64,000 bases of DNA from a virus, in the IMG/VR virus record IMGVR_UViG_3300035670_000062, positions 49,099-113,098 of that record. One strand, 5' to 3'. A program made the translations under genes and the position numbers. Of this stretch, positions 29,644 to 56,016 are shown in pieces. Each line of letters opens with the position of its first letter. The first letter of the stretch is position 1. The notes under the pieces were generated by a model. It was not told the origin of the DNA. It saw only the letters and a list, made by a program, of their open reading frames with translations, and ran no database searches.

Positions 29644-30396
29644 ATGATATCATTAATAAAACCATATAAAGAATTAAATAAAAAACCTAAAGCCATATTC
29701 ATGGCAGGACCTCCTGGTTCAGGTAAATCATTTATATTAAATAAATTTTCAATACCATCTAAATTCCAAGTAATTAATGTAGATGATATTTATGAAGAAT
29801 TACTTAAAACTCAAATAGGTAAAATGGATTTGAAAAAAATGAATCTTGATGAATTATCTAAAACAGGGGAATTAATGAATCAAGCTAGAAAACAGACAAA
29901 AGAAAAAGAAGAAGATTTATTAATACAAAAACAAAATGTTGTAATTGATGGAGTTGGTGCATCATCAAAAAACTTATTAGAAAAGAAAAAATATATTGAA
30001 TCATTAGGTTATGAAACTTTTATGATTTTAGTTTATGTATCTCCTATAGTATCCTTAGAAAGAAACCTAAAAAGAGATAGACAACTACCAACCAGAGCAG
30101 TATTGGATAGTTGGGTTAAAGTAATAAATAATATTGATACATATAAAAACGAATTTAAGAATAATATAATAATAATTAACAACAACCCTTCAGAAATAAC
30201 TCCATTAGATATTGATACTATATTTAACCAATACCCAGACCCAGAAGGTAAAGAGAAAACACCTGAAGAAATAGAAAAAAGAAATAAACTAAAACAATCT
30301 ATAATAGATAATATAAAAGTTTTAATAAAAAAAGAACAATCTTTTACACCTGATTCTCAAATCCAACCTAAAATCAATGAGTTCATTAGTCAATAA
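29644..30396 (+). CDS. P-loop kinase (zeta-toxin/AAA_33-like)
   Basis: MAGPPGSGKS, INVDD, VIDG and SLERN..R.R motifs. Confidence 0.75.
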   Translation: MISLIKPYKELNKKPKAIFMAGPPGSGKSFILNKFSIPSKFQVINVDDIYEELLKTQIGKMDLKKMNLDELSKTGELMNQARKQTKEKEEDLLIQKQNVVIDGVGASSKNLLEKKKYIESLGYETFMILVYVSPIVSLERNLKRDRQLPTRAVLDSWVKVINNIDTYKNEFKNNIIIINNNPSEITPLDIDTIFNQYPDPEGKEKTPEEIEKRNKLKQSIIDNIKVLIKKEQSFTPDSQIQPKINEFISQ

Positions 30397-32347
30397 TTTA
30401 ATTAATCCTATATTAGAATCTAATCAAGAATATACTGTATATTTTGATGTAGACGATACTCTAACTAATTACACTGAAAACTTACTAACAACTAATATTA
30501 AAGATAAAAAAATATTAGAAATAAGACAAATAAAACCATCAGACACAGCATCCAATAAAGAATTTTGGGTAAATGCAAAATGGTATCCTGGTTCAAAAGA
30601 AATGTTTAATTACATAAAATCAAAATTCCCAAACGTAAAAATATTATCTGCAGTACCTGAATTATCAAAACTTAAACAACAAGAAACTGGTAATAAATTC
30701 TATAATGAACCTATAGAAGGTAAATCTGAATGGTTAAATAAAAATGTAGGTAATATTGAAAAGATATGGGTCAAAAATGGAAAAGAAAAAGCAGAATATG
30801 CTTCACCTACATCTATATTAATTGATGATAAATTAGAGAATATAAAACATTTTGAAGATGCTGGTGGAATAGGTATATTGATGGATAATCCTAAAAATGT
30901 AATCAATAAAATAAATACATTATCCAACACATTAAACGAATTAACAAATCGATCTTTACCATATCAGCAAATTATACGAGATAAGTATAGTAGCGTTTTA
31001 GATAAACTGTTTTTAATTCCATATAATGATAATTATGTTGAACTAAATATTATAAAAATAAAACCTGAATTTAGAGATAAAGGATATGCTACTAAAATAT
31101 TAAATGATATTACTAAATGGGCTGATGAAAATAATAAAATATTAACATTAGACCCAAATGAAACTTTTGGATCAAATAAAGATAGGTTAATTGATTTTTA
31201 TAAAAGATTTGGATTTAAATTAAATAATGGTAATGATAAAAAAGCAGATAATGAAATGGTAAGAACACCTCAATTATCATTAAATGAAAATGCTACTTAT
31301 TCTAATAATATAAATTATAAAAATGAAATTAAAGAAATTACTAAATTTTTATTAGATAAAGGAGAAAACATTCAACCATTACCTAAAGTTACATTTAAAA
31401 ACGGAGATAAAACGAATGCTAAGGATTTTATGGGAAAAACAGCATATTATGACCCTAATTCCTCTGAAATTGTGTTATACACCGAGGGTCGCCATCCTAG
31501 AGACATAATAGCTTCATATTTACATGAATTAATCCACCATATACAAAACATAGAAGGTAGATTACATAATATACAAACACAAAATGTCCATGAAGATGAA
31601 TCATTAGAATTACTTGAAAGAGAAGCATATGAAAAAGGAGGTATGTTTTTGAGATCTTATAAAGATAATAAAAGGATAATAGATATACCTAAATTTAATT
31701 ATGAAAAAACAATATATCATGAGTTATATGATACTTTAAATGAAATAACTTTATCTAAAGAAAATGCTGTTGGTATAAATGGAGATTTAGAAGGAGGAGA
31801 TTTTAAAGTAGGAGATATAACTTATGTATATTCTATAAATAACATAATAAATCCTTATAAAGATGAAGGTAAATTTTATAATATTTCTTTTTATCCTGAT
31901 GGAAATATAAATGCTGAACCACTAGAAGGAAAGGAAAATTATATTAAAATTTTATCTACAATATATAAAATTGTAGTTGATTTTGCTGAAAAAGTAAAAC
32001 CTGAATATATAGGAATTGCATCTATGGATAATAACGAAAATAAAAACTACCACAGAATATATGCAAATTTAACAGATAATAAATACAATAGGATACCTGG
32101 GTATTTTAGAAAAGATGTTAGTAAAGAATTTATAACTCCTCAAGGTAAAGGTAGATTTGTAGTATTAAAAAGAAACAAAAATATTGAAGAGGATCTTAAA
32201 AAAAATGAAATTAAATATTGGGCTATTTATTATTCAATATATGAAAAATTAAAAGAAAATATTAATTATTATTCATTTTTAAAAGACAGATTAAAGGGAG
32301 AACAATTAAGCGCATTAGATTATTTTTACAATATTTTAACTAAATAG
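30377..32347 (+). CDS. Multidomain protein: HAD 5'-nucleotidase + GNAT + HExxH metallopeptidase-like + unknown domain
   Basis: FDVDDTL..LIDD (HAD); IKPEFRDKGYAT..LIDFYKRFGF (GNAT); YLHELIHHIQ..EREA (zincin-like). Domains are separated by LNE. Confidence 0.75.
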   Translation: MSSLVNNLINPILESNQEYTVYFDVDDTLTNYTENLLTTNIKDKKILEIRQIKPSDTASNKEFWVNAKWYPGSKEMFNYIKSKFPNVKILSAVPELSKLKQQETGNKFYNEPIEGKSEWLNKNVGNIEKIWVKNGKEKAEYASPTSILIDDKLENIKHFEDAGGIGILMDNPKNVINKINTLSNTLNELTNRSLPYQQIIRDKYSSVLDKLFLIPYNDNYVELNIIKIKPEFRDKGYATKILNDITKWADENNKILTLDPNETFGSNKDRLIDFYKRFGFKLNNGNDKKADNEMVRTPQLSLNENATYSNNINYKNEIKEITKFLLDKGENIQPLPKVTFKNGDKTNAKDFMGKTAYYDPNSSEIVLYTEGRHPRDIIASYLHELIHHIQNIEGRLHNIQTQNVHEDESLELLEREAYEKGGMFLRSYKDNKRIIDIPKFNYEKTIYHELYDTLNEITLSKENAVGINGDLEGGDFKVGDITYVYSINNIINPYKDEGKFYNISFYPDGNINAEPLEGKENYIKILSTIYKIVVDFAEKVKPEYIGIASMDNNENKNYHRIYANLTDNKYNRIPGYFRKDVSKEFITPQGKGRFVVLKRNKNIEEDLKKNEIKYWAIYYSIYEKLKENINYYSFLKDRLKGEQLSALDYFYNILTK

Positions 32348-34996: not shown

Positions 34997-35535
34997 TGAA
35001 AAAACAAATTGAAGAAATATTATCCCCAAAAGTAGTAAAGAAAGCCGAGGAATTCAAAGCTCAAATTATTAACAATAATGGGGATAAAATTTTTCAAAAA
35101 TATGGAAATGAAGCTGAAAACATAATTCAAGGTAGAGCCATAAATTTAGCAAAAAAACATTTTGAAGAAATGAAAAACACAAAATTAACAGAGTTAATAA
35201 AACAATCCTTATTAAAGTCATCTATAACTGAACAAGATGTAGAAGTTGGAGCTGATAGATATGAAGAAGAAAATGAATTGAAAGAAGTTTCTAATTTATT
35301 GGACCAATTAGAAGAATTATTGAAAGTTCATGATTGGAATTATGAATATTATGATGATTATAAAAAATGGAAAGTTGGTGCTAATAGTTGGGCCCAAATA
35401 ACAAGAATAGCAAATAGAATTGAATCTAAAGGAGACAAATATAAAAAAGATGTAAATGATTTGATTAAACAATATGAACCTAAGTTAAATGAAAATTTAA
35501 CAGAAAATATATTTAAAATATTAAGAAAAAAATGA
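34996..35535 (+). CDS. Hypothetical protein
   Basis: GTG start; internal leader-like MKNTKLTELIKQSLL..ITE. Confidence 0.65.
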   Translation: MKKQIEEILSPKVVKKAEEFKAQIINNNGDKIFQKYGNEAENIIQGRAINLAKKHFEEMKNTKLTELIKQSLLKSSITEQDVEVGADRYEEENELKEVSNLLDQLEELLKVHDWNYEYYDDYKKWKVGANSWAQITRIANRIESKGDKYKKDVNDLIKQYEPKLNENLTENIFKILRKK

Positions 35536-45064: not shown

Positions 45065-46660
45065 ATGGGTAATAGTAGTGAAATCCAAGACATAATAAGA
45101 CAAGAATATATTCTCTGTGTTAAAGATCCAGGTCATTTTATGAAGAAATACTGTAATATTCAACACCCACAAAGAGGAAGAATACCTTTTCATTTATATC
45201 CATTTCAAGATAAAGTATTACAATTATGGAAAGATAATCCATATTCAGTTATTTTAAAATCAAGACAATTAGGTATATCAACCTTAGCAGCGGGTTATGC
45301 CTTATGGTTAATGTTATTTCATAAAGATAAAAACATACTATGTCTCGCTACGACTCAAGAGACTGCCAAAAACATGGTAACTAAAGTAATGTTTATGTAT
45401 GATAACTTACCTTCATGGTTAAGAGAAAAAGATAAACCACTTGAACAAAATAAATTAACCTTAAAACTTAATAATGGTTCTCAAATAAAAGCTAAATCAT
45501 CAAACGCTGATGCTGCTCGTTCAGAAGCCGTATCTTTACTAATAATAGATGAAGCTGCGTTTATTGAAAATATTGCAGAAACTTGGGCTTCTGCACAACA
45601 AACCTTAGCAACAGGAGGTGGAGCTATTGTTTTATCAACTCCATATGGTACTGGAAATTGGTTTCATCAAACATGGGTTAGAGCTGAAGAAAAATTAAAT
45701 GATTTTCTTCCAATTAAACTTCCATGGTTTGTCCATCCTGAAAGAGATGAAACTTGGAGAAAAAAACAAGATGAATTATTAGGTGATCCTAGGTTAGCGG
45801 CACAAGAATGTGATGCAGTTTTCTCTACATCAGGTGATACAGTATTTTACAATGAATTTATTGAATTTTTTGAAAATAATCATATATTGGAACCAATGGA
45901 AAAAAGGGGAATTGACCATAACTTATGGATATGGGAACCATGTGATTATTCAAAAAGTTATATGGTTGTAGCGGATGTAGCTAGGGGAGATTCAAAAGAT
46001 TATTCTGCATTTCATATAATAGATATTGAAAATAACTCACAAGTGGGTGAGTATAAAGGACAAATAAGTACTAGAGATTTTGGTTATTTATTAGTAGGAA
46101 TAGCAACAGAATATAATAATGCTTTATTAGTTGTTGAAAATGCAAATATAGGATGGGCCACAATTCAAACTATACAAGAAAGAGCATATTCTAACTTATA
46201 TTATTCACCTAAAAGTGGAGACAACACTTATGATTCGTATTTTGACCAATATTCAGATACATCAAGAATGACACCTGGTTTTACTATGAATTCAAGAAAT
46301 AGACCTATGGTGATAGGTAAATTTTTAGAAGCAGTAGGAGATCGAAGTGTAATAATAAGATCAAAAAGACTTATTGAAGAAATGAAAGTATTTGTTTGGA
46401 AAAATGGTAGAGCTGAAGCTCAACCTGGATATAATGATGACTTAGTAATAAGTTTTGGTATTGGATTATTTGTAAGAGACTCAGCACTTCGATTTGGGCA
46501 ACAAAACGTTGATATATCAAGAAACTTACTAAATAGTATAACAGTAACAAAAACACCATATAATGGAGCTTATAACCACAATCAAAACAATGACCCATGG
46601 AAAATAAAAAACCCATACTCAAATGATGATAGTGATAATAATTTAAGATGGCTTCTATAA
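45065..46660 (+). CDS. terL: Terminase large subunit (T4 gp17-like)
   Basis: LYPFQ, KSRQLGIST (Walker A), LIIDEAAF (Walker B), STPYG, DVARG..DYSA and NDDLV motifs. Confidence 0.95.
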   Translation: MGNSSEIQDIIRQEYILCVKDPGHFMKKYCNIQHPQRGRIPFHLYPFQDKVLQLWKDNPYSVILKSRQLGISTLAAGYALWLMLFHKDKNILCLATTQETAKNMVTKVMFMYDNLPSWLREKDKPLEQNKLTLKLNNGSQIKAKSSNADAARSEAVSLLIIDEAAFIENIAETWASAQQTLATGGGAIVLSTPYGTGNWFHQTWVRAEEKLNDFLPIKLPWFVHPERDETWRKKQDELLGDPRLAAQECDAVFSTSGDTVFYNEFIEFFENNHILEPMEKRGIDHNLWIWEPCDYSKSYMVVADVARGDSKDYSAFHIIDIENNSQVGEYKGQISTRDFGYLLVGIATEYNNALLVVENANIGWATIQTIQERAYSNLYYSPKSGDNTYDSYFDQYSDTSRMTPGFTMNSRNRPMVIGKFLEAVGDRSVIIRSKRLIEEMKVFVWKNGRAEAQPGYNDDLVISFGIGLFVRDSALRFGQQNVDISRNLLNSITVTKTPYNGAYNHNQNNDPWKIKNPYSNDDSDNNLRWLL

Positions 46661-46681
46661 AATAATAAAAAAATACATAAA

Positions 46682-48553
46682 ATGGCAGACACACAATTAT
46701 TCCCAAGATTGAAAAGATTATTTTCAACAGATGTAATAATAAGAAACATAGGAGGAAACCAACTCCAAATAATGGATATAAATCAGATACAACAAGCTGG
46801 TAATTTACAAACAAATTCCTTAGTAGATAGGTTTAGTAGAATTTATACTACATCACCTACATCACCTAACTCATATTCTTCAAGATTAAATTATTCAACA
46901 TTGAGACCTAGTCTTTATAATGAGTATGATAATATGGATACTGATGCTATTGTATCTTCGGTATTAGATATAATAGCAGATGAATGTACTCTAAAGAATG
47001 ATATGAATGAAGTTATTCAAATTAAAAGTAGTGATGAAAATATTCAACAAATATTATATAATTTATTTTATGATGTTATGAATATTGAATTTTCATTAGG
47101 GTTATGGATAAGAAATATGTGTAAATATGGTGATTTTTTCTTAAAATTAGAAATTGCCGAAAAATTTGGAGTATATAATGTAATACCATATAGCGCATAT
47201 CAAATAGAAAGATTAGAAGGTCAAGATAAACAAAATCCCCATGCTATTAGTTTTAAAGTAATTGAAGAATATTCAACTTATGGAACTCATGGAATATTTA
47301 ATAATTCAAAAGAAACTATCACATTCGATAATTATGAAATGGCTCATTTTAGATTATTGACAGATACTAATTTTTTACCATATGGAAGAAGTTATATTGA
47401 AAACGCTAGAAAATTATATAAACAATATACTCTAATGGAAGATGCAGCTCTTATACATAGAATAGTAAGAGCACCAGAAAAAAGAATATTTTACATAAAT
47501 GTAGGTAACATCCCACCAGCTGAAGTAGAAAATTTCATGCAGAAAACAATTTCTAAAATGAAAAGAACACCTCACGTTGACCCACAAACAGGTGATTATA
47601 ATTTAAAATATAACATGCAAAATATGTTAGAAGATTTTTATGTTCCTGTTAGAGGTAATGATTCATCTACAAAAATTGAAGCATCACCTGCTCTTAATTA
47701 TGATGGGATGGCTGATATTGAATATTTAAGAAATAAATTATTTGCTGCTTTAAAAGTCCCCAAAGCTTTTATGGGATATGGAGAAGACACAAGTGGAAAG
47801 GCAACTTTGGCTGCCCAAGATATTAGATTTGCACGTACTATAGAAAGAATACAAAGAATAGTATTATCTGAATTAAATAAAATAGCATTAATACATTTAT
47901 ATACTCAAGGATATAGAGATGGAAATTTAACAAACTTTGAATTATCATTAACAACTCCATCTATTATTTATGACCAAGAAAGAGTAGCTTTGTTAAAAGA
48001 AAAAGTAGATTTAGCTGGACAAATGATGGAATTAAATTTGTTCCCATCTGATTTCATATATGATAATTTATTTAAACTTAGTGAAGATAAATACGATGAA
48101 TATAGAGACTTAATTAGAGAAGATGCAAAACGTAAATTTAGACTGACCCAAATAGAACAGGAAGGAAATGACCCATTAGAATCAGGTCAATCATATGGTA
48201 CCCCTCATGACTTAGCTTCATTATATGGGACTGGAAGAATAACTAAACCAGGAGAAATTCCAAATGGATATGATGAAAATAAAGAATTAGGAAGACCTAA
48301 AACTAATATGACTGATAGAAATACTCAAAAAGATAATTTTGGTAAAGATAGATTAGGAGCTAAAGCACAAAAAGAAAAAGAACCTCAATCCCAAAAACAA
48401 AAATTCAAAGGTAATTCCCCCCTAGCATTAGAAATGAAAAACATAATTAAAAAATTACCTCAAGCACCAAAATCAGAAAAAAACATTATATTAGAATCAC
48501 TTTCTAATAAAATCAATTTCCTAGATGAATCAAATTTAGAACTAGAAGACTAA
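46682..48553 (+). CDS. Portal protein (T4 gp20-like)
   Basis: MEDAALIHRIVRAPEKRIFYINVGN, EDFYVPVRG, DIEY...KLF.ALKVP and DIRFAR.I.R.Q motifs. Confidence 0.95.
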   Translation: MADTQLFPRLKRLFSTDVIIRNIGGNQLQIMDINQIQQAGNLQTNSLVDRFSRIYTTSPTSPNSYSSRLNYSTLRPSLYNEYDNMDTDAIVSSVLDIIADECTLKNDMNEVIQIKSSDENIQQILYNLFYDVMNIEFSLGLWIRNMCKYGDFFLKLEIAEKFGVYNVIPYSAYQIERLEGQDKQNPHAISFKVIEEYSTYGTHGIFNNSKETITFDNYEMAHFRLLTDTNFLPYGRSYIENARKLYKQYTLMEDAALIHRIVRAPEKRIFYINVGNIPPAEVENFMQKTISKMKRTPHVDPQTGDYNLKYNMQNMLEDFYVPVRGNDSSTKIEASPALNYDGMADIEYLRNKLFAALKVPKAFMGYGEDTSGKATLAAQDIRFARTIERIQRIVLSELNKIALIHLYTQGYRDGNLTNFELSLTTPSIIYDQERVALLKEKVDLAGQMMELNLFPSDFIYDNLFKLSEDKYDEYRDLIREDAKRKFRLTQIEQEGNDPLESGQSYGTPHDLASLYGTGRITKPGEIPNGYDENKELGRPKTNMTDRNTQKDNFGKDRLGAKAQKEKEPQSQKQKFKGNSPLALEMKNIIKKLPQAPKSEKNIILESLSNKINFLDESNLELED

Positions 48554-48585
48554 TCCACATATTTATAACAAAACAATTCCCTTAA

Positions 48586-49440
48586 ATGAATAAAATTAAA
48601 CATTCCAAGCTCAAAAACTCAGGAATTCTGTTTGAATTATTAGTTAGGACTATTACATCTGATACCTTAAATGGTAAAGAATCACCAGCTAAAGATATAC
48701 TTAAAGAATATTTTGTAAAAACAGAATTAGGTAAGGAATATAAATTATATGATTATTTAATTAAAAAAAATAACCTAACAGAATCTAAAGCTAATATGGT
48801 TATCAATACTGTATTAGAAAGTTATAATAAATTAAATAAAAAATCGATAAGTAGACAAAAATATAATTTAATAAAAGAAATTAAAAAACATTATGATTTA
48901 GATGAATTTTTTAAACATAAATTAAATGATTATAAAGTTCAAGCAGCCATATATACATTACTGGAATTAAAATCAAACTCAGTAGATAATATTGAACAAG
49001 AAATTACAAATAAATACACAATATTAGAACATTTATCATCAAGTAAATTAACTGATAAAAAAAATAATATTTTAATTAATGAATTTTCTCAATATGATAA
49101 AGATTTAAGAATATTGACATATAAAATATTACTTGAAAAATTCAATGAGAAATATGATGGTTTATCTTCACCACAGAAAAATATACTTAAAGAATTGATT
49201 ATGTCATTAGATAATACACCTAAATTAAAGGAGTTTTATAATAATGAAATAAAATCAATCAAAACTACACTCTTATCATTAAATGAAAATATGAAAGATA
49301 AAGTAGTCAAAATAAAAATTGATGAAATATTAAATATATTACAACCAAAAGATAAATTATGTAAGGTAAAAGATGATGACCTTATAAATTTATTACAATA
49401 TCATGATTTAATTAATGAATTATCTCAAGTAAATGTATAA
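48586..49440 (+). CDS. Hypothetical head-module protein
   Basis: KHSK.KN.GILFELL N-terminus; lies between portal and protease. Confidence 0.7.
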   Translation: MNKIKHSKLKNSGILFELLVRTITSDTLNGKESPAKDILKEYFVKTELGKEYKLYDYLIKKNNLTESKANMVINTVLESYNKLNKKSISRQKYNLIKEIKKHYDLDEFFKHKLNDYKVQAAIYTLLELKSNSVDNIEQEITNKYTILEHLSSSKLTDKKNNILINEFSQYDKDLRILTYKILLEKFNEKYDGLSSPQKNILKELIMSLDNTPKLKEFYNNEIKSIKTTLLSLNENMKDKVVKIKIDEILNILQPKDKLCKVKDDDLINLLQYHDLINELSQVNV

Positions 49441-50032
49441 ATATAAATTAAAAGAAGTTGAATTAGGTGATACAAAAATCATCAAAGGTAAAAAACATAC
49501 TGTGTCTGACATAGACCCAGAAACTAATTCTATATCGTGGGATATTTCAACCACTCCAAATTTCGAAAGTTCTTTTAAAATGTTTTCTCAATTAAAAAAA
49601 GCACTAAAAACCTTAAGTTCAAAGAAAGATTCAAAACTTGATCTAATTTCAACTGAAGTAGATTCATTATTTAATGAATTTAGAACTCATCTAAGAAAGA
49701 AATACCCAGATGAATATAAATTATTCAAATCAATAAATGAAGATTCTATTGCTTACAGTTCCCCCAAAGTATTCAAACCTAACCCTAACTTCAAATATAA
49801 ACTAAAAGAAGGAACAGACGCATATACAGACTTCCAGAAAAAACAAATTAATATATTTGATGAATTAGAAGAAAAATTAAATTCATTATATCCCCTAATA
49901 TCAAACGCTCAAAATTTTACAACAAAATATTATAATGAAAATCCAGGATCATTTAAAATATTATATAGTACAGAAATAATAAATAAATTTTTAGATGATA
50001 TTAAAAAAATACTAGAATCAACACCCAACTAA
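49433..50032 (+). CDS. Hypothetical protein with repeated KYKLKE
   Basis: KYKLKE occurs at the N-terminus and again internally. Confidence 0.7.
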   Translation: MYKYKLKEVELGDTKIIKGKKHTVSDIDPETNSISWDISTTPNFESSFKMFSQLKKALKTLSSKKDSKLDLISTEVDSLFNEFRTHLRKKYPDEYKLFKSINEDSIAYSSPKVFKPNPNFKYKLKEGTDAYTDFQKKQINIFDELEEKLNSLYPLISNAQNFTTKYYNENPGSFKILYSTEIINKFLDDIKKILESTPN

Positions 50033-50059
50033 ATTAAAAAACAATCTCATAAAACATAT

Positions 50060-52558
50060 ATGAAAAATACACTTACAGAACAATACAGACTTATTAAAAT
50101 AGGTAAAGGAAATAAAGAAACTTTTTTAAAGGAAGCTAAATCATTATTCCCTAACTTACTTACAAATAGTTCAACATATAATGAAACTGAAAAGATTTTA
50201 AAACAAAAGGGAGTAATATCTGAAAATATTCATAGTTTGAATCCTATTGCATTTCCTACTACTAAAAAAGAATCATATGAAATAGCATTTAGTAAATTCT
50301 TAAAAGAAGCTAAAAAGGAAGAACCTAAAACTGAAACTTACGACAATAAGAATACTAAAAATTCTAATAACTTAATATTCGACCAAATAATGAGAGGATG
50401 TTATGTTGAAGCTAAAGTTGAGAAAAATAAAGACAAGACAATAGATGAAATTAAAGACATTGTTGTTAAAAATTTACAAAAAGATCCTATTTATTATACT
50501 AAAAATGGTGCTTTTGGTGAAGAAGGATTAGGATATGAAACTGAAGTTCCTGGTTTAGGTACTCCAAAAGAGGCTAAAGGTAAGTATAAATCAAGTGGAT
50601 ATGGTGATTTAAAAGAAAATACTACAAGATTATTTTATAGGATTCCTAATGAAATAAAAAATTTAGAAAAATATGGAGTAAAAATTACTATAGACCCTAA
50701 AAATACAGTTTCACCAATTCAAAGAATAGGAGTACCTGTAAATTTAGATGATGAAATATATGATAAAATAGAAGATATTCTATATAGATATAATTTAAAA
50801 CCCAAAAAATATTTTATCACACAAAAAGGCGTAAACGAAAACAAAGACACTGAAATTAAAATAGGAGACATTCTTATTAAAAATGGAAAAAAAGGAAAAG
50901 TTATAAAAGTGATGGATGATATGGTTAATGTTGATTTTGGTAACGGGGATGTTTACGGTATTACTTTAAGTAGAATTAAAGGAAATGAAATAGTAAACGA
51001 AAACAAAGATGCTGAAGTTTATGCTAAGAAAAAAGGTTTTACCACAAAAAAAGGATTAAATGAAAATAATAATTTAAAAGAAGGTAATGATTTTGGTGGA
51101 GCTGGTTTAATAGTTGTGGGTCGTACTCCAATAGATAATGATTTAATAGACCAAGCTGTAGAAGAAAGTGGTTTTTACGGAATATTTAATGCTAGAGAAA
51201 ATTATTGGTTTTTTCCTGAAGGTGAAGAAACAATAGATAGGCTAGAAAATGAATTAGAAACTATTTTTATTAAAAAAGGAATTAATGCTAGATTTGAAGG
51301 TCAATTTAATGAAAATAAAACAAACAATCAACCTAAATTCAAAAAAGGTGACAAAGTAACTTACCTAGGCCATCCAGGTGAAATTACTGCTGTTAATAAA
51401 GAAATGACTGGTGCTATTACATATAATGTTGCTTATAATAAAGGAACAGGTAGAACTAAAGCAACAAACATCTATAACAAAGATGGTGAAATTAAACCTT
51501 TAAATGAATCAAATTCAGAATATTTAGATAAATTATATGATATAATTTTAAAATATGTTAAAGATCCTGACGAAGCAGAACAAGAATTAGATGGATATAT
51601 AAGTCAAGGATGGAGTGGATTTTCAAATATGTTAATGTCTAATCTAAATAAAGATATGGATTTTATATCATTAACCCAACAAGGACATGATAAAGACATT
51701 CAAAGAAGAGAATCTGGATTAAATGAATCATATGGTTCAAATGGTGACTTTGATGGTACTGGTTTAATAGTAGTAGGTCGCACCCAAATAGATAATAATG
51801 AAATTGGAGATGTAATTGAAGATTTAGGTTATTATGGAGTATGGAATTCAAGAGAAGGATATTGGTTTATACAAGAAGATAAACCAACTCTTAGTTATTT
51901 AGAAGCTGATTTAGATGAAGAATTTGCTAAACGAGATATTAATGCTAGATTTGAAGCTCAATTTGGAGAGGATGAAATAGATTACGATGATGAAAATTTC
52001 TCAGACCCCCTAATAGATGGTGAAGAAGATTTATTTGAAAGTAAATGGAGAAAAACACAAAAAGAAAAAATAGTTAAAGAAAATATAAATAAAGAAATTA
52101 CCCAAATTAACAAAGATGCGGAATCAGAAGTTTTAGAAAGTAAATTATCTAAAATAAATGATGCTATTGAAAAAAGGGAATCTAAATTATCTAAAATAAA
52201 TGAAGATGAAGATTTAAAAGGATTAACTGACAATAAAAAAATTAAATCTCTACAAAAGGAAATAAAAACTTTAGAAAAACATAAATCTAAAATCGAGAAA
52301 CAATTAAATAAAGGCTCAAAACAAAACAAACCTAAGGAAATCAATGATGAAATCATAGATGAAACTGAGGGATTGAATTTCGAATATAAAGATTATTTTA
52401 ATTTAAACGAATCGATAGAGGAACAATTATCTTCAACACAAGAATCATTATTTACTTTAATCGAGGATTTATATGATGAATTAGGTAGCATGGATGAAGT
52501 AAAAAAATTAGTTAATTCTGCTTTAAACAACGTCGCTTTAAAATTTGGTGATTATTAA
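50060..52558 (+). CDS. Modular polyprotein-like head-associated protein
   Basis: Many short modules joined at (L/V/F)NE or LKE; duplicated GLIVVGRT..INARFE domain; immediately upstream of the prohead protease. Confidence 0.7.
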   Translation: MKNTLTEQYRLIKIGKGNKETFLKEAKSLFPNLLTNSSTYNETEKILKQKGVISENIHSLNPIAFPTTKKESYEIAFSKFLKEAKKEEPKTETYDNKNTKNSNNLIFDQIMRGCYVEAKVEKNKDKTIDEIKDIVVKNLQKDPIYYTKNGAFGEEGLGYETEVPGLGTPKEAKGKYKSSGYGDLKENTTRLFYRIPNEIKNLEKYGVKITIDPKNTVSPIQRIGVPVNLDDEIYDKIEDILYRYNLKPKKYFITQKGVNENKDTEIKIGDILIKNGKKGKVIKVMDDMVNVDFGNGDVYGITLSRIKGNEIVNENKDAEVYAKKKGFTTKKGLNENNNLKEGNDFGGAGLIVVGRTPIDNDLIDQAVEESGFYGIFNARENYWFFPEGEETIDRLENELETIFIKKGINARFEGQFNENKTNNQPKFKKGDKVTYLGHPGEITAVNKEMTGAITYNVAYNKGTGRTKATNIYNKDGEIKPLNESNSEYLDKLYDIILKYVKDPDEAEQELDGYISQGWSGFSNMLMSNLNKDMDFISLTQQGHDKDIQRRESGLNESYGSNGDFDGTGLIVVGRTQIDNNEIGDVIEDLGYYGVWNSREGYWFIQEDKPTLSYLEADLDEEFAKRDINARFEAQFGEDEIDYDDENFSDPLIDGEEDLFESKWRKTQKEKIVKENINKEITQINKDAESEVLESKLSKINDAIEKRESKLSKINEDEDLKGLTDNKKIKSLQKEIKTLEKHKSKIEKQLNKGSKQNKPKEINDEIIDETEGLNFEYKDYFNLNESIEEQLSSTQESLFTLIEDLYDELGSMDEVKKLVNSALNNVALKFGDY

Positions 52559-52578
52559 ATTAAAATAAATAAAATAAA

Positions 52579-53211
52579 ATGAATAGAACATTATTAATAG
52601 AAACTAATATATTAGTACCTTCATTATTAAAAGAAGAAAATTCTAATAATAATGGAAATATATTCATTGAAGGTATATTAGCTACCTGTGAAGTTGAAAA
52701 TGGAAATGGTAGATATTACCCTAGAGAATTATGGGAGAGAGAAATTAAAATCTTCGAAAATAAAATAAAAGCAGGTTCAACTGAATGCGCAGGGGAATTA
52801 GATCACCCTCAATCAGAAATAATCAATCTAAATAATGTATCTCATGCTATTAGAAAAGTATGGTGGAATGGAGATAAAATTATGGGATTAATAGAAATAT
52901 TCTCAGATCAGGGTCCTAAAGGAACTACAGCAGGAAGAATAGCAGGAGCATTAATTAGAAATAATCTATCAGTAGGTGTAAGTAGTAGAGGGATGGGTTC
53001 ATTAACTGAAGTAAATGGAGTAATGGAAGTTCAAGATGATTTTTCATTATTATGTTGGGATTTAGTATCAAACCCATCAAACCCAAACTCATGGATGAAG
53101 GAATCAAAAGGTTCATTAAATGAATCTAGATTATCTTCAATAGATAAGTATTCTAAAGTAAATTCTATTATAACAGAAATATTATGTTCTAATGGAATGT
53201 GTAAAATTTAA
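52579..53211 (+). CDS. Prohead core protease (T4 gp21-like)
   Basis: NGNGRYYP, GELDHP, VSH, GVSSRGMGS and WDLVSNPS motifs. Confidence 0.95.
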   Translation: MNRTLLIETNILVPSLLKEENSNNNGNIFIEGILATCEVENGNGRYYPRELWEREIKIFENKIKAGSTECAGELDHPQSEIINLNNVSHAIRKVWWNGDKIMGLIEIFSDQGPKGTTAGRIAGALIRNNLSVGVSSRGMGSLTEVNGVMEVQDDFSLLCWDLVSNPSNPNSWMKESKGSLNESRLSSIDKYSKVNSIITEILCSNGMCKI

Positions 53212-53370
53212 AAATATTTTTTTATAAAAAATCGACTTTGATTTTTTTATATATATTTATACTCGTAAAATATACCATCACCCTCATTTATATGGTATTA
53301 TAGACAAAAATCAATAATTACGTTTTTCAAAATAAACGTACTTTCCCAACAATTAATTTAGGAATAAAAA

Positions 53371-54336
53371 ATGGCAAAAAGAGATCTATTCAAAGAAGCT
53401 ATTGCAGAAGCTAAAGCAGTAAAAGAAGTCGCGATTGCAAATGCAAAAATAGCATTAGAAGAAGCTTTCACTCCACATTTAAAATCAATTTTATCACAAC
53501 GTATCCAAGAAATGGAATATGAAGAAGATGAAGAAGAAACAATGAATATGGAAGAAAGTGAAGAAACATTAGACTTATCAGAAATTTTAAAAGAAATTGA
53601 GGATGATGAAGATATTATTGAATCTGAAGAAGAGGAAGATAAAGACATCGCTGAAATTTTAAAAGAAATTGAGGATGAAGTTGATAATGAAATGGAAGAA
53701 GAAGATGAAGAAGATGAAGAAGAAGAAGAATCATTAAATATCGAAGACATGACAGATGAAGATTTAAAAGACTTTATCGAATCAGTAATTAAAGACATGG
53801 TAGCAGCTGGTGAATTAGAACCAAATACTGAAATGGAAGATGATGAAATGGAAGATATGGATGATGAAATTGACTTAGAAATTGAAGATGATGAAACTGA
53901 AGATGAAGAAATTGAAGAAAACAACATCGATTCAGGAGCAGCTCCAAAATCATTTATTAAACAAAACCCTGACTATGTTATGGAGTTAAGAAATGAATTA
54001 AGAGAAGCAAACAAATCATTAATAATATTACGTAGTAAGTTAAATGAAGTTAATTTATTAAATTCAAAATTACTTTATACTAATAAAATTTTCCAATCTA
54101 ATACATTATCAACAAAAGAAAAAACAAGTATATTAGAATCATTTGATAAAGCAACAACAGTAAAAGAAGCAAAATTGGTATTTGAAACTTTGAACGAGGG
54201 TTTAAAAAGTAAAAAACAACCAATTAAAGAATCTTTAAGTATGGCTTCAAAATCAATGGGTTCACAACAAAAACCAAACCAAATAATTAACATAGATCCT
54301 CAAGTCCAAAGATGGAAAAAACTTGCGGGACTATAA
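53371..54336 (+). CDS. Prohead core scaffolding protein
   Basis: Extremely acidic centre with a coiled-coil C-terminus; between protease and major capsid. Confidence 0.8.
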   Translation: MAKRDLFKEAIAEAKAVKEVAIANAKIALEEAFTPHLKSILSQRIQEMEYEEDEEETMNMEESEETLDLSEILKEIEDDEDIIESEEEEDKDIAEILKEIEDEVDNEMEEEDEEDEEEEESLNIEDMTDEDLKDFIESVIKDMVAAGELEPNTEMEDDEMEDMDDEIDLEIEDDETEDEEIEENNIDSGAAPKSFIKQNPDYVMELRNELREANKSLIILRSKLNEVNLLNSKLLYTNKIFQSNTLSTKEKTSILESFDKATTVKEAKLVFETLNEGLKSKKQPIKESLSMASKSMGSQQKPNQIINIDPQVQRWKKLAGL

Positions 54337-54363
54337 ATTAAAAACAAAAACTAAAAACAAACA

Positions 54364-56016
54364 ATGTCACAATTAAATTCATTATTAGAAAGTGCATCTC
54401 AAAGTTTCAAAAATTTGAACAACGATGCAGCTAGACTAGCTAAAAAATGGTCAGCAACAGGTCTATTAGAAGGCCTAAGTAACGAGAACGAAAGAAACAG
54501 TATGTCTATGTTACTTGAAAACCAAGCTAAACAATTAGTATTGGAATCAAACAGTACAAACCAAGGTGGAGCTACCTTTTCAGGAGGTGGTCAAGGTGAA
54601 CAATGGAATGGAATTGCATTACCATTAGTGAGAAAAGTATTTGGACAAATATCTTCCAAAGAATTTGTTTCATTACAAACAATGAACATGCCTTCAGGTC
54701 TTGTATTTTACTTGGATTTCCAGTATGGACAATCAAAAAGACCAAATTTTGGACCTTCAGGAGACGTATTTGCTGAAACTTCATCATTATATGGTAACAC
54801 AAACCCAGGTGCTGCTGCAAACCCAGCAGGAGGTATGTATGGTGCTGGAAGATTTGGTTATTCAATTAATCAATTTAAAGCTACTGTAACTTCAAGTAAC
54901 GTAACTACAAGTTCTGCAGATTGGGTAGATGTTGATTATGATGCTGCTTTATCAGCTTCAATTGCTGCTGGTGATTTGACAAAAATTACTATCCCAATTT
55001 CTGGTTCATTAACTAGACCTGATTTGAAAGGTGTAAGAGCATTTAGTGTGTCTGCTTCTACTGCAAATCCTGCATTCTTATTACCTGCTTACACTTCAAC
55101 TGATGGAACTAACATTACGTTTGTATTTGCTTCAGGTTCAGGTGTAGCTCAAGGTGGTGTAGACGTATACTACAACCAACAACCAGTTGATAACAACAGA
55201 GGTGATTTTGAAGATGTAACAAACGGTGGTTTCCCTAATGCTCAATCTCAAACAGAACTTTCAATCCCATCAATTGATGTGAAAATGAAATCTGAAGCTA
55301 TTGTTGCTAAAACAAGAAAATTAAAAGCACAATGGACACCTGAGTTTGCTCAAGATTTGAATGCATACCAAGCATTAGACGCAGAAGCAGAATTAACTTC
55401 AATCATGAGTGAGTATATTTCAATGGAAATTGACTTAGAAATCTTAGACATGTTGATTCAAGATGCTTCAGGTTTCGATGAATATTGGAATGCTTCAAAC
55501 AACCAACAATTGAATGCTGCTAAAACAGGATACGATAACTTAGGTTTCTATAACACTCAAGGTCAATGGTTCCAAACATTAGGTACTAAATTACAAAAAG
55601 TAAGCAACAAAATCCATACTAAGACTATGAGAGGAGGAGCTAATTTCATGGTAATTAGCCCAACTGTAGCTACAATCATTGAATCAATTCCTGGATTTGC
55701 TTCAAACGCTGATGGTGATGCTGCTAAAAACAAATTTGCATTCGGTATCCAGAAAATGGGTCAAATGAATAGCAGATATGATGTATACAAAAACCCTTAC
55801 ATGTCTGAAAACGTGATTTTAATGGGTTATAGAGGTAGCCAATTCTTGGAAGCTGGTGCGGTATTTGCTCCATATGTTCCATTAATCCAAACACCTTTAG
55901 TATACGATCCAGATACCTTCACTCCAAGAAAAGGTATGTTAACAAGATATGCTAAGAAAATGATAAGACCAGAATATTATGGACGTGTATTCGTTTCTAA
56001 TACTGAGTTAGTTTAA
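54364..56016 (+). CDS. Major capsid protein (T4 gp23-like)
   Basis: KW...LLEG, LLENQ, LPLVRKVF, Q.M..PSGLVF, AKTRKLKAQWT.E.AQDL and APYVPL..F.P.KG..TRY motifs. Confidence 0.97.
   Translation: MSQLNSLLESASQSFKNLNNDAARLAKKWSATGLLEGLSNENERNSMSMLLENQAKQLVLESNSTNQGGATFSGGGQGEQWNGIALPLVRKVFGQISSKEFVSLQTMNMPSGLVFYLDFQYGQSKRPNFGPSGDVFAETSSLYGNTNPGAAANPAGGMYGAGRFGYSINQFKATVTSSNVTTSSADWVDVDYDAALSASIAAGDLTKITIPISGSLTRPDLKGVRAFSVSASTANPAFLLPAYTSTDGTNITFVFASGSGVAQGGVDVYYNQQPVDNNRGDFEDVTNGGFPNAQSQTELSIPSIDVKMKSEAIVAKTRKLKAQWTPEFAQDLNAYQALDAEAELTSIMSEYISMEIDLEILDMLIQDASGFDEYWNASNNQQLNAAKTGYDNLGFYNTQGQWFQTLGTKLQKVSNKIHTKTMRGGANFMVISPTVATIIESIPGFASNADGDAAKNKFAFGIQKMGQMNSRYDVYKNPYMSENVILMGYRGSQFLEAGAVFAPYVPLIQTPLVYDPDTFTPRKGMLTRYAKKMIRPEYYGRVFVSNTELV

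What the first reader, a model, noticed from the sequence alone, without database searches (positions are those of the whole stretch)
50060..52558. Polyprotein of small modules joined at (L/V/F)-N-E sites, directly upstream of the prohead protease
Seen: the protein divides at DLKE|N, GVNE|N, IVNE|N, GLNE|N, NLKE|G, QFNE|N, PLNE|S, GLNE|S and DLFE|S into pieces of up to ~110 aa. These include two SH3/KOW-like modules (IKIGD..KGKV; FKKGDKV..G.I) and two copies of a ~75-aa domain (from ~51083 and ~51743). Known: gp21-type proteases cut after hydrophobic-x-E, and the MCP here has LLE and VLE near its N-terminus. Inference: one packaged precursor is processed into many mini-proteins inside the capsid.
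Basis: partly seen in the sequence, partly recalled or inferred. Interest (0 to 1): 0.82.

Follow-up and report, generated by a model that had tools for sequence, protein, structure and literature searches.

The report
Protease-jointed phage head cargo polyprotein
An uncultured T4-like water phage strings about ten small, swappable protein modules into one 832-residue head gene, and every joint carries the cutting motif of the head-maturation protease encoded next door, so the chain is probably loaded into the capsid and cut apart there, although no cut has been measured.

Summary
ORF 50060-52558 (832 aa) carries all nine listed sites. Hydrophobic-N-E-(N/S/G) occurs 7 times against 0.45 expected (0 of 5000 shuffles). 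The ~75-aa domain is duplicated (55% identity, E 6e-28).

The gene belongs to a large uncharacterised family (1244 cluster representatives). In 64 of 67 complete IMG/VR copies it lies directly upstream of an S77 (T4 gp21-type) prohead protease. Members share an N-terminal ~186-aa domain ending KSSGYG-D-L-(K/N)-E|(S/G/N) and usually a C-terminal coiled coil. Between these lie more than 200 module types.

Similarity breakpoints between relatives pile up at hydrophobic-x-E sites (24% against 5% by chance). The same motif is dense in protease and scaffold and nearly absent from terminase and portal. One module also occurs elsewhere as a free-standing gene behind a short cleavable leader.

Best reading: a prohead-core protein whose cargo modules are released by the head protease, like concatenated T4 internal proteins.

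The scan noted this kind of polyprotein before on other DNA and once elsewhere in this genome. I rate it a new variant of a known kind.

The parts
50060..52558 (+). 832-aa precursor (95 kDa, pI 5.0): conserved N-domain, about eight variable pieces, conserved coiled coil, C-terminal tail
50060..50617 (+). Family-defining N-terminal domain, residues 1-186, ending KSSGYGDLKE|N. It starts with the leader MKNTLTEQYRLIKI|GKG, where the family consensus is ...LIKE|GKG. Internal conserved FLKE|A (25), VISE|N (55) and FLKE|A (83).
50618..50839 (+). Module M1, residues 187-260 (74 aa, pI 9.2), ends GVNE|N
50840..51001 (+). Module M2, residues 261-314 (54 aa), 'IKIGD...KGKV' small-barrel-like pattern. 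Flanked by the 17-nt direct repeat GTAAACGAAAACAAAGA at 50831-50847 and 50993-51009.
51002..51082 (+). Residues 315-341: a 21-aa piece whose last 19 residues match the C-terminal end of a larger module of relatives (P0004-P0006), then the 6-aa piece NNNLKE. Sites GLNE|N (335) and NLKE|G (341).
51083..51313 (+). Module A copy 1, residues 342-418 (77 aa, pI 4.2), ends QFNE|N
51314..51508 (+). Module M6, residues 419-483 (65 aa, pI 9.6), 'FKKGDKVTYLG' small-barrel-like pattern, ends PLNE|S
51509..51727 (+). Module M7, residues 484-556 (73 aa, pI 4.4), ends GLNE|S
51728..52039 (+). Module A copy 2 plus acidic tail EDEIDYDDENFSDPLIDGEEDLFE|S, residues 557-660 (104 aa, net charge -24)
52040..52411 (+). 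Conserved coiled-coil region, residues 661-784, covered in 186 of 257 homologues. Possible sites IVKE|N (674), EVLE|S (693) and NLNE|S (784).
52412..52555 (+). C-terminal tail, residues 785-832 (48 aa, acidic)
52579..53211 (+). S77 prohead protease (T4 gp21 homologue). His76 and Ser135 align with T4 His85 and Ser140. Predicted self-processing sites LIE|T (8) and SLNE|S (182).
53371..54336 (+). Acidic scaffold protein with 13 hydrophobic-x-E-(S/G/N/A/T) sites
54364..56016 (+). gp23-type major capsid protein with LLE|S (9), LLE|G (36), LLE|N (52) and VLE|S (61) in its N-terminal propeptide region
46682..48553 (+). gp20-type portal. Start of the conserved block portal - orf284 - orf199 - polyprotein - protease.

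Best explanation
ORF 50060-52558 is a prohead-core protein of a T4-like phage that doubles as a carrier for small cargo proteins. The steps below are inferred unless marked as shown.

1. It is made late with the head genes. It enters the assembling prohead core through its conserved ends: the 186-aa N-domain with a T4-CTS-like start, and the C-terminal coiled coil.
2. When the S77 protease encoded 21 nt downstream is activated, it cuts after Glu in hydrophobic-x-Glu|(Ser/Gly/Asn). It does so in the capsid protein propeptide, the scaffold, its own C-terminus and at 10-12 joints of this protein.
3. This frees folded modules of 54-104 aa, namely M1, M2, A, M6, M7 and A+tail, together with short peptides.
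4. The peptides leave. The folded modules stay with the DNA and are probably delivered to the host at infection, as T4 IPI-III and Alt are.

Shown here: the motif, its enrichment, the module mosaic with breakpoints at the motif, the fixed position next to the protease, the sharing of the motif with protease and scaffold, and the existence of one module as a separate leader-tagged gene.
For: - Motif enrichment: 7 against 0.45, and 10 against 0.65, each 0 of 5000 shuffles.
- Family size: 1244 cluster representatives at E<=1e-3.
- Synteny: TerL-portal-orf284-orf199-X-protease-scaffold-MCP in the 80 IMG/VR loci. In 64 of 67 complete X ORFs (277-763 aa) the protease starts within -60..+100 nt of the stop. 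Of the 3 exceptions, 2 end at a contig end and 1 has a 703-nt gap.
- N-domain joint: 245 of 296 KSSGYG motifs are followed by x-(L/I)-x-E, with P2 K 177 and N 56, and P1' S 96, G 69 and N 62. The joint before the coiled coil carries the motif in 144 of 145.
- Breakpoints: BLAST similarity ends at 0 to +2 residues from a hydrophobic-x-E-[NSGAT] site for 24.1% of 2866 boundaries (HSPs >=70% identical), against 5.1% for random positions. Away from the N-domain joint it is 326 of 1848 (17.6%) against 4.6%.
- P0006 equals P0004 minus a stretch bounded by LNE|NK and LNE|SK.
- Module A in 27 distinct contexts: the motif lies within 16 aa upstream in 24 of 27 (null 43%) and at its C-end in 24 of 26 (null 31%).
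- Motif hydrophobic-[KNR]-E-[SGN] per 1000 aa in the 80 loci: family 5.9, protease 5.9, scaffold 6.1, orf199 1.4, orf284 0.9, TerL 0.08, portal 0, MCP 0.
- Each non-redundant protease listed shows one or two such sites about 25-30 aa from the C-terminus. In the window's own protease, the site SLNE|S aligns with T4 gp21 ITE|S.
- Stand-alone module A genes of 84-112 aa carry the leaders MDNFDLKKYLAE|G or MKIKRFSNFINE|S. The first leader heads 142 ORFs with unrelated bodies in 76 of 78 loci. 6 of 119 such bodies share other modules with the family.
- T4 gp21 cuts after L/I-x-E and the T4 CTS mechanism is established (PMC9026906, sections and passages read).
Against: - No proteomic, biochemical or structural datum exists for any member. 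Cleavage is inferred from a three-residue motif in a K/E/N-rich protein.
- Plain hydrophobic-x-E is not enriched (29 against 23, p 0.085), so the signal depends on including P2 and P1'.
- The MCP propeptide sites have a hydrophobic P2 (LLE, VLE) and score 0 on the [KNR] version. The protease would therefore have to accept both.
- Most relatives in IMG/VR have only 2-4 clear joints, and some long middle parts lack sites.
- The window's own leader lacks the Glu that 163 of 177 relatives have.
- Breakpoint counts are not independent, because the sequences are related. Cutting at the motif before clustering is partly circular.
- The ESM Atlas model of the whole protein is poor (pTM 0.18, pLDDT 0.52), so domain limits are not confirmed by structure.
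- T4 core proteins in this gene slot (gp67, gp68) are cut into fragments that mostly leave the head (PMC9026906).
Confidence: 0.65

Rival explanations
1. It is a disposable prohead-core or scaffold accessory, the functional analogue of T4 gp67/gp68. It is cut at the same sites, but the pieces are debris that leaves the head before DNA packaging. The variable middle only fills or sizes the core and delivers nothing.
For: The gene sits in the slot between portal and protease where T4 has genes 67 and 68. Motif density equals that of the scaffold. It has conserved ends with a coiled coil. T4 gp22, gp67 and gp68 are cut into fragments that mostly exit (PMC9026906; PMC7411985).
Against: The modules look like conserved autonomous domains: module A has 20 invariant columns among 11 sequences at 53-87% identity. 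There are more than 200 module types in 308 proteins. The same modules occur as separate leader-tagged genes, which is the layout of T4 internal proteins, not of scaffolds. There is no sequence relation to T4 gp68 or to the phage's own scaffold (hhalign probability 0.2% each).
Confidence: 0.2
2. The repeated joints are mainly recombination junctions at the DNA level, that is, microhomology for module shuffling. The protein works uncut as a multidomain internal or decoration protein with flexible linkers.
For: Module M2 is flanked by an identical 17-nt repeat that uses the rare Asn codon AAC twice (AAC is 15 of 75 Asn codons in the gene). An earlier scan note on another phage reported joints fixed at silent positions (e1-5339016, not checked here).
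Against: Across the family P3 (L 243 of 245) and P1 (E) are fixed, while P2 (K/N/S/R) and P1' (S/G/N) vary. That points to selection on the peptide. The other joints in this gene differ in DNA. The same peptide motif marks the protease C-terminus and the scaffold, which do not shuffle. The two ideas are compatible: a cleavable linker can also serve as microhomology.
Confidence: 0.1
3. The motif clustering is a by-product of composition and linker bias in a low-GC genome, with no function.
For: The genome is 28% G+C and the protein is rich in K, N and E. NE dipeptides are only mildly enriched (13 against 8.3, p 0.059).
Against: Shuffles that keep composition never reach the observed counts (0 of 5000). 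The other 51 ORFs of the same window hold 14 sites in all. Position-specific conservation holds in hundreds of relatives of higher G+C usage.
Confidence: 0.03

Closest known systems
Phage T4 internal proteins IPI, IPII, IPIII and Alt (capsid targeting sequence plus gp21 processing)
   Same: Both have a T4-type head module with a gp21-family (S77) protease. Cargo is released by a cut after hydrophobic-x-Glu. Cargo is hypervariable between relatives. The family N-terminus MK(K)TLQ(D/E)QYxLIKE|GKG resembles T4 IPII/IPIII MKTYQEFIAE|A. One module also exists as a separate gene with a short cleavable leader.
   Different: In T4 there is one cargo per gene behind a 10-aa tag. Here about eight pieces are chained in one gene between a 186-aa conserved N-domain and a conserved coiled coil, inside the head-gene block. 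No sequence homology to the T4 IPs was found. Packaging and ejection are unmeasured.
T4 prohead core proteins gp67 and gp68
   Same: Same gene slot, portal ... protease. T4 gp68 also carries several hydrophobic-x-E sites, e.g. VLE|N, SINE|N and PLNE|F. Both are substrates, or presumed substrates, of the head protease.
   Different: There is no detectable sequence relation (hhalign probability 0.2%). gp67 and gp68 are 80 and 141 aa and not modular. Their fragments mostly leave the head (PMC9026906).
Ejection (E) proteins of giant phages SPN3US, phiKZ and 201phi2-1 with long N-terminal propeptides removed by gp21-like proteases
   Same: They have long N-terminal targeting regions (111-254 aa) with several internal cleavage motifs, are cut after Glu, and the protease has a C-terminal propeptide (PMC10052503, PMC7411985 and PMC9026906, passages read).
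   Different: There, each precursor gives one mature protein and the motif is A/S-x-E. Here many mature pieces per precursor are predicted, and the motif is L/I/V/F-x-E.
Polyvalent proteins of phages and conjugative elements (Iyer et al. 2017, PMC5512222)
   Same: Many unrelated modules sit in one late phage protein, predicted to be delivered with the DNA and released by proteolysis. The mosaicism is extensive (passages read).
   Different: Polyvalent proteins are defined by known enzymatic conflict domains and an embedded peptidase (MPTase). Here no module matches any Pfam family, no peptidase is embedded, and release is predicted in trans by the prohead protease at a defined linker motif.

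Membership tests
T4-type internal proteins (CTS-tagged, gp21-processed head cargo) | Short N-terminal capsid targeting sequence that loads the protein into the prohead core | tested here: inconclusive
   Family start MK(K)TLQ(D/E)QYxLIKE|GKG (163 of the 177 with the xxxx|GK pattern, of 258 examined) against T4 MKTYQEFIAE|A. This is a resemblance only. The window copy reads LIKI. Targeting is not testable in silico.
T4-type internal proteins (CTS-tagged, gp21-processed head cargo) | Cleavage by a gp21-family protease after L/I-x-E | not testable with these tools
   Motif present and enriched. S77 protease adjacent. No cleavage data.
T4-type internal proteins (CTS-tagged, gp21-processed head cargo) | Presence in the mature head and ejection into the host | not testable with these tools
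   No proteomics for any member. The papers that mention phage immuto (listing only) were not opened, and their titles and abstracts concern other topics.
T4 gp67/gp68 prohead core proteins | Gene between portal (gp20) and protease (gp21) | tested here: met
   Window order, T4 order, 80 loci.
T4 gp67/gp68 prohead core proteins | Sequence homology to gp68 | tested here: not met
   hhalign of family alignment A1 against T4 gp68: probability 0.2%. gp67 was not compared.
Polyvalent proteins (Iyer et al. 2017) | Recognised conflict or enzymatic domains and an embedded processing peptidase (MPTase) | tested here: not met
   No Pfam family above threshold in the whole protein or in nine separate pieces. 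No PDB sequence match.
Polyvalent proteins (Iyer et al. 2017) | Mosaic multi-module architecture in a phage late or structural context | tested here: met
Peptidase S77 (neighbouring gene 52579-53211) | Profile match and catalytic His/Ser | tested here: met
   PF03420 E 1.4e-24, 87 bits against a cut-off of 27. phrog_207 E 9e-50. Window His76 and Ser135 align with T4 His85 and Ser140. That these are T4's catalytic residues is recalled, not from a call.
SH3/KOW-like small barrels (modules 261-314 and 419-483) | Profile or fold match | tested here: inconclusive
   No SH3/KOW Pfam match at E<=1. Only the 'x-G-D-x-V...G' pattern supports the label.

The most novel reading that the evidence does not exclude
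The slot between portal and protease in this large clade of aquatic T4-like phages is a general 'cargo magazine'. Any small domain flanked by L-x-E linkers and inserted between the conserved N-domain and coiled coil is loaded into every capsid, cut free by the head protease and injected with the DNA. Modules pass freely between this magazine and separate leader-tagged genes. On this reading, the more than 200 orphan module types seen in 308 proteins are an unexplored arsenal of injected host-takeover or anti-defence mini-proteins.
Probability: 0.35. Interest if true: 0.8.

Novelty: new variant of a known kind. Interest (0 to 1): 0.62.

Why it matters
T4 taught that a 10-residue tag plus a protease site suffices to load and release a protein inside a capsid. 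If this family works as proposed, a very common group of aquatic phages (1244 clusters at 50% identity) uses the same logic in concatenated form. One conserved head gene would carry a fast-changing set of small proteins released by the maturation protease.

That would explain a large, unannotated, hypervariable gene in the otherwise conserved head block. It would give a rule (L-x-E|S/G/N joints) for finding virion-delivered proteins in metagenomes, and it would supply hundreds of orphan domains as candidates for early host-takeover or anti-defence functions.

It is directly testable. A distant member, gp071, sits in the same slot of the cultured Flavobacterium phage vB_FspM_immuto.

Tried and rejected
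- Pfam, PHROGs and PDB sequence searches of the whole protein, nine pieces, the family profile and a module A profile gave nothing above threshold. There were only coiled-coil noise hits for residues 661-784.
- tblastn of the whole protein against 50,697 phage records found nothing at E<=1e-3. Even so, immuto gp071 is a distant member by direct comparison (E 2e-10).
- Homology of the family to T4 gp68 or to the window's scaffold was rejected (hhalign probability 0.2%).
- ESM Atlas: the held model of the whole protein is poor (pTM 0.18). Structural look-alikes of residues 342-483 are small alpha/beta domains aligned to about 345-420, with TM by query <=0.46. The N-domain gave only a weak DUF5661 lead. 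I treat both as leads, not results.
- A search of the phage's own 113-kb record for further copies of module A found only the two in this gene. BLAST of all its ORFs against the family found only one weak outside match (35170-35535, E 1.6e-5).
- The unfiltered breakpoint test is noisy: 13.7% against 7.6% at +-2 residues, over 27,817 boundaries. The signal sharpens only with HSP identity.
- Literature: searches, with passages read in PMC3012670, PMC5512222, PMC7411985, PMC5694885, PMC10052503 and PMC9026906, found no description of a prohead-protease-processed multi-cargo polyprotein. Papers outside the held library, and supplements (closed, not requested), could hold one.
Full report
WHAT IS THERE

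The window is part of a 113,098-base IMG/VR virus record, 28% G+C, with CheckV completeness 69%. Positions 45065-56016 hold a T4-type head block on the + strand:
- large terminase
- gp20-type portal (PF07230, E 3e-67)
- two unknown ORFs of 284 and 199 aa
- the 832-aa ORF in question (50060-52558)
- an S77 prohead protease (52579-53211; PF03420, E 1.4e-24; 33% identical to T4 gp21, E 3e-24)
- an acidic scaffold protein
- a gp23-type capsid protein (PF07068, E 1.4e-71)

The nearest cultured phages by capsid protein are Flavobacterium phage vB_FspM_immuto (56%), Microcystis phage Mel-JY01 (49%) and Rhodothermus phage RM378 (34%).

THE OBSERVATION

[LIVFM]NE[NSG] occurs 7 times against 0.45 expected from 5000 shuffles of the same protein, and none of the shuffles reaches 7. 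[LVF][NK]E[NSG] occurs 10 times against 0.65. Plain hydrophobic-x-E is not enriched (29 against 23.0, p 0.085). The other 51 ORFs of at least 150 aa in the window hold 14 [LIVFM]NE[NSG] sites together.

The two copies of the ~75-aa domain ('module A') are 55% identical, E 6e-28. They are the only two in the record.

Cutting at the sites gives pieces of 186, 74, 54, 21, 6, 77, 65, 73, 104, 33, 91 and 48 aa.

The SH3/KOW label for residues 261-314 and 419-483 rests on the sequence pattern only.

THE FAMILY

A full scan of 1.84 billion cluster representatives found 1244 at E<=1e-3 and 230 at E<=1e-30. The best matched stretch nearly always covers query residues 1 to about 185-192. The word-indexed search found 304 homologues of 457-1456 aa, none with a Pfam domain or an informative name.

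Among 257 homologues, BLAST covers the parts of the window protein as follows:
- N-domain: 238
- C-terminal coiled coil: 186
- M1: 25
- M2: 14
- module A: 34-37
- M6: 26
- M7: 6

So both ends are conserved and the middle is a mosaic.

In 80 IMG/VR loci found with the N-domain, the gene order is the same as in the window: TerL, portal, orf284, orf199, family ORF, protease, scaffold, MCP. Of the 67 complete family ORFs (277-763 aa), 64 are followed by the protease within -60..+100 nt. Two of the other three end at a contig end, and one has a 703-nt gap.

Immuto gp071 (360 aa) lies directly upstream of its protease. It is a distant member: 29% identity over the N-domain, E 2e-10. It also shares the acidic peptide DYDDENFSDPLID.

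DO JOINTS COINCIDE WITH THE MOTIF?

1. Direct reading. P0006 is P0004 minus a stretch bounded by LNE|NK and LNE|SK. P0002, P0003, P0005 and P0075 carry different modules after the same KSSGYGD(L/I)..E joint.

2. Breakpoints, all-against-all BLAST of 258 proteins. Internal ends of HSPs of at least 70% identity fall 0 to +2 residues after the Glu of a hydrophobic-x-E-[NSGAT] site in 24.1% of 2866 cases, against 5.1% for random positions. At 60% identity or more the figures are 16.8% against 4.9% (n 6811), and at 50% or more 12.5% against 4.9% (n 13,951). Leaving out the N-domain joint, the counts are 326 of 1848 (17.6%) against 4.6%. Unfiltered, the effect is weaker: 13.7% against 7.6%. These boundaries come from related sequences and are not independent.

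3. The two conserved joints. The N-domain joint is x-(L/I)-x-E in 245 of 296 KSSGYG motifs (L 243; P2 K 177, N 56; P1' S 96, G 69, N 62). The joint before the coiled coil carries the motif in 144 of 145. E186 is at least 90% conserved in a 117-sequence alignment.

4. Module A in 27 distinct contexts. The motif lies within 16 aa upstream in 24 of 27 (null 43%) and at its C-terminal end in 24 of 26 (null 31%) (listing).

5. Cutting and clustering. Cutting 308 distinct proteins at the motif gives 1252 pieces of at least 30 aa in 235 clusters: three conserved clusters, 31 others with three or more members, and 181 singletons. Several clusters have very tight lengths (88-89, 111-112, 54, 64-66 aa). 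This last test is partly circular, and close relatives inflate it.

IS THE MOTIF THE PROTEASE'S?

T4 gp21 cuts after L/I-x-E. It cuts gp22, gp67 and gp68 into fragments that mostly leave the head. [quoted passage not shown]

In the 80 loci, hydrophobic-[KNR]-E-[SGN] occurs at these rates per 1000 aa:
- family protein: 5.9
- protease: 5.9
- scaffold: 6.1
- orf199: 1.4
- orf284: 0.9
- terminase: 0.08
- portal: 0
- capsid protein: 0

Each non-redundant protease listed shows one or two such sites about 25-30 aa from its C-terminus, for example ALNE|SR, LKE|GK and MNE|GL. In the window it is SLNE|S at residue 182, aligned with ITE|S of T4 gp21. LIE|T at residue 8 parallels the LIE-9 of gp21 mentioned in PMC9026906.

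The capsid protein has LLE|S, LLE|G, LLE|N and VLE|S within its first 61 residues. Residue 88 aligns with T4 gp23 residue 98, so VLE-61 lies near the position of the T4 propeptide cut. The T4 position itself is recalled, not from a call.

ARE THE MODULES INDEPENDENT UNITS?

Five free-standing proteins of 84-112 aa consist of module A behind a short leader: M(D/K)NFDLKKYLAE|G..., or MKIKRFSNFINE|S. The first leader heads 142 ORFs with unrelated bodies in 76 of 78 IMG/VR loci, often in arrays of up to six. One of these loci lies on the same 166-kb contig as a family member (compare L025 and L122). Six of 119 distinct leader-ORF bodies share other modules with the family.

The window's own genome has nine ORFs that start MKKSELRQ(L/I)I(K/R)E and then diverge. 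T4 IPII and IPIII start MKTYQEFIAE|A, and IPI starts MKTFKEF. The family itself starts MK(K)TLQ(D/E)QYxLIKE|GKG in 163 of the 177 members that show the pattern, of 258 examined. The window copy is the single LIKI variant.

So the same modules travel either as separate leader-tagged genes, which is the T4 layout, or chained in this gene.

DNA LEVEL

Module M2 is bracketed by an identical 17-nt repeat (50831-50847 and 50993-51009). The repeat encodes VNENK(D) with the rare AAC codon twice, and AAC is 15 of 75 Asn codons in the gene. The other joints differ in DNA. The linker may therefore also serve as microhomology for module exchange. The peptide-level conservation, with P3 and P1 fixed and P2 and P1' variable, argues that the peptide is what is selected.

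WHAT COULD NOT BE DONE

- No contexts for the closest relatives (P0002-P0007).
- No domain-boundary models.
- No fold searches.

The ESM Atlas holds a poor model of the whole protein (pTM 0.18, pLDDT 0.52). Its structural neighbours for residues 342-483 align mostly to about 345-420. They are small alpha/beta domains (SPOR, EF-G C-terminal, DUF3343), with TM by query <=0.46. This is only a lead that module A is a unit with roughly the motif-defined limits.

COMPARISON WITH THE KNOWN, AND NOVELTY

The mechanism proposed is that of the T4 internal proteins and Alt. The gene slot is that of T4 gp67/gp68, to which there is no sequence relation. The long N-terminal conserved region, with several internal sites, recalls the 111-254-aa propeptides of SPN3US and phiKZ ejection proteins (PMC10052503). 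The mosaic recalls the polyvalent proteins of Iyer et al. (PMC5512222), which use embedded peptidases and known enzyme domains.

In the held library I found no description of many cargo modules chained in one head gene and released in trans by the prohead protease.

Within this scan the same kind of object was noted repeatedly on other genomes and once elsewhere in this genome. Those are unchecked AI notes and were not used as evidence.

VERDICT

It is a new variant of a known kind. Interest is 0.62.

Noticed in passing
window 6477, 12754, 37995, 39460, 39990, 41737, 43579, 56132, 56888 (ORF starts, + strand): Nine ORFs of 68-279 aa begin MK(K/R)SELRQ(L/I)I(K/R)E and then diverge completely. 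This is a shared leader ending in hydrophobic-x-E, like the T4 capsid targeting sequence. Earlier scan notes list 11 such ORFs.
   Followed up: partly
window 50831-50847 and 50993-51009: An identical 17-nt direct repeat GTAAACGAAAACAAAGA brackets module M2. It uses the rare Asn codon AAC twice (AAC is 15 of 75 Asn codons in the gene). This suggests insertion or exchange of the module by recombination in the linker.
   Followed up: partly
window 51002-51064: Residues 315-335 include DAEVYAKKKGFTTKKGLNE, the last 19 residues of a ~75-aa module that is complete in relatives P0004-P0006. It is a deletion remnant left between two joints.
   Followed up: no
window 51965-52039; L001 7680-8762: The acidic peptide (E)DEIDYDDENFSDPLID... 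is shared by only 5 of the 321 family proteins, with a sixth regex hit (P0152) carrying a divergent version. It is also shared with the distant immuto gp071, so it looks like a mobile short motif of unknown role.
   Followed up: partly
L087-L164 (IMG/VR contigs): The leader M(D/N/E)NFDL(K/R)KYLAEG(R/K)L heads 142 ORFs with unrelated bodies in 76 of 78 loci. In 40 loci it occurs as arrays of 2-6 genes. It is the counterpart, in a sister clade, of the window's MKKSELRQ leader.
   Followed up: partly
window 50099-50101 (codon 14): The window's copy reads LIKI|GKG where 163 of 177 relatives read LIKE|GKG. If that Glu is a processing site, this copy has lost it.
   Followed up: no
window 48494-48529 (portal residues 605-616 of 623): Two hydrophobic-x-E-S sites (IILE|S, FLDE|S) lie in the last 20 residues of the portal protein. 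This is a possible C-terminal trimming site. It was not examined in relatives.
   Followed up: no
window 35170-35535: This is the only other ORF of the record with similarity to the family: 28% identity over 76 aa to the C-terminal part of P0170, E 1.6e-5.
   Followed up: no
window 30377-32347: An earlier scan note describes a second candidate polyprotein (656 aa) in this genome, joined at L-N-E sites. My count found 1 [LIVFM]NE[NSG] and 3 [LIVFM]NE sites there.
   Followed up: no
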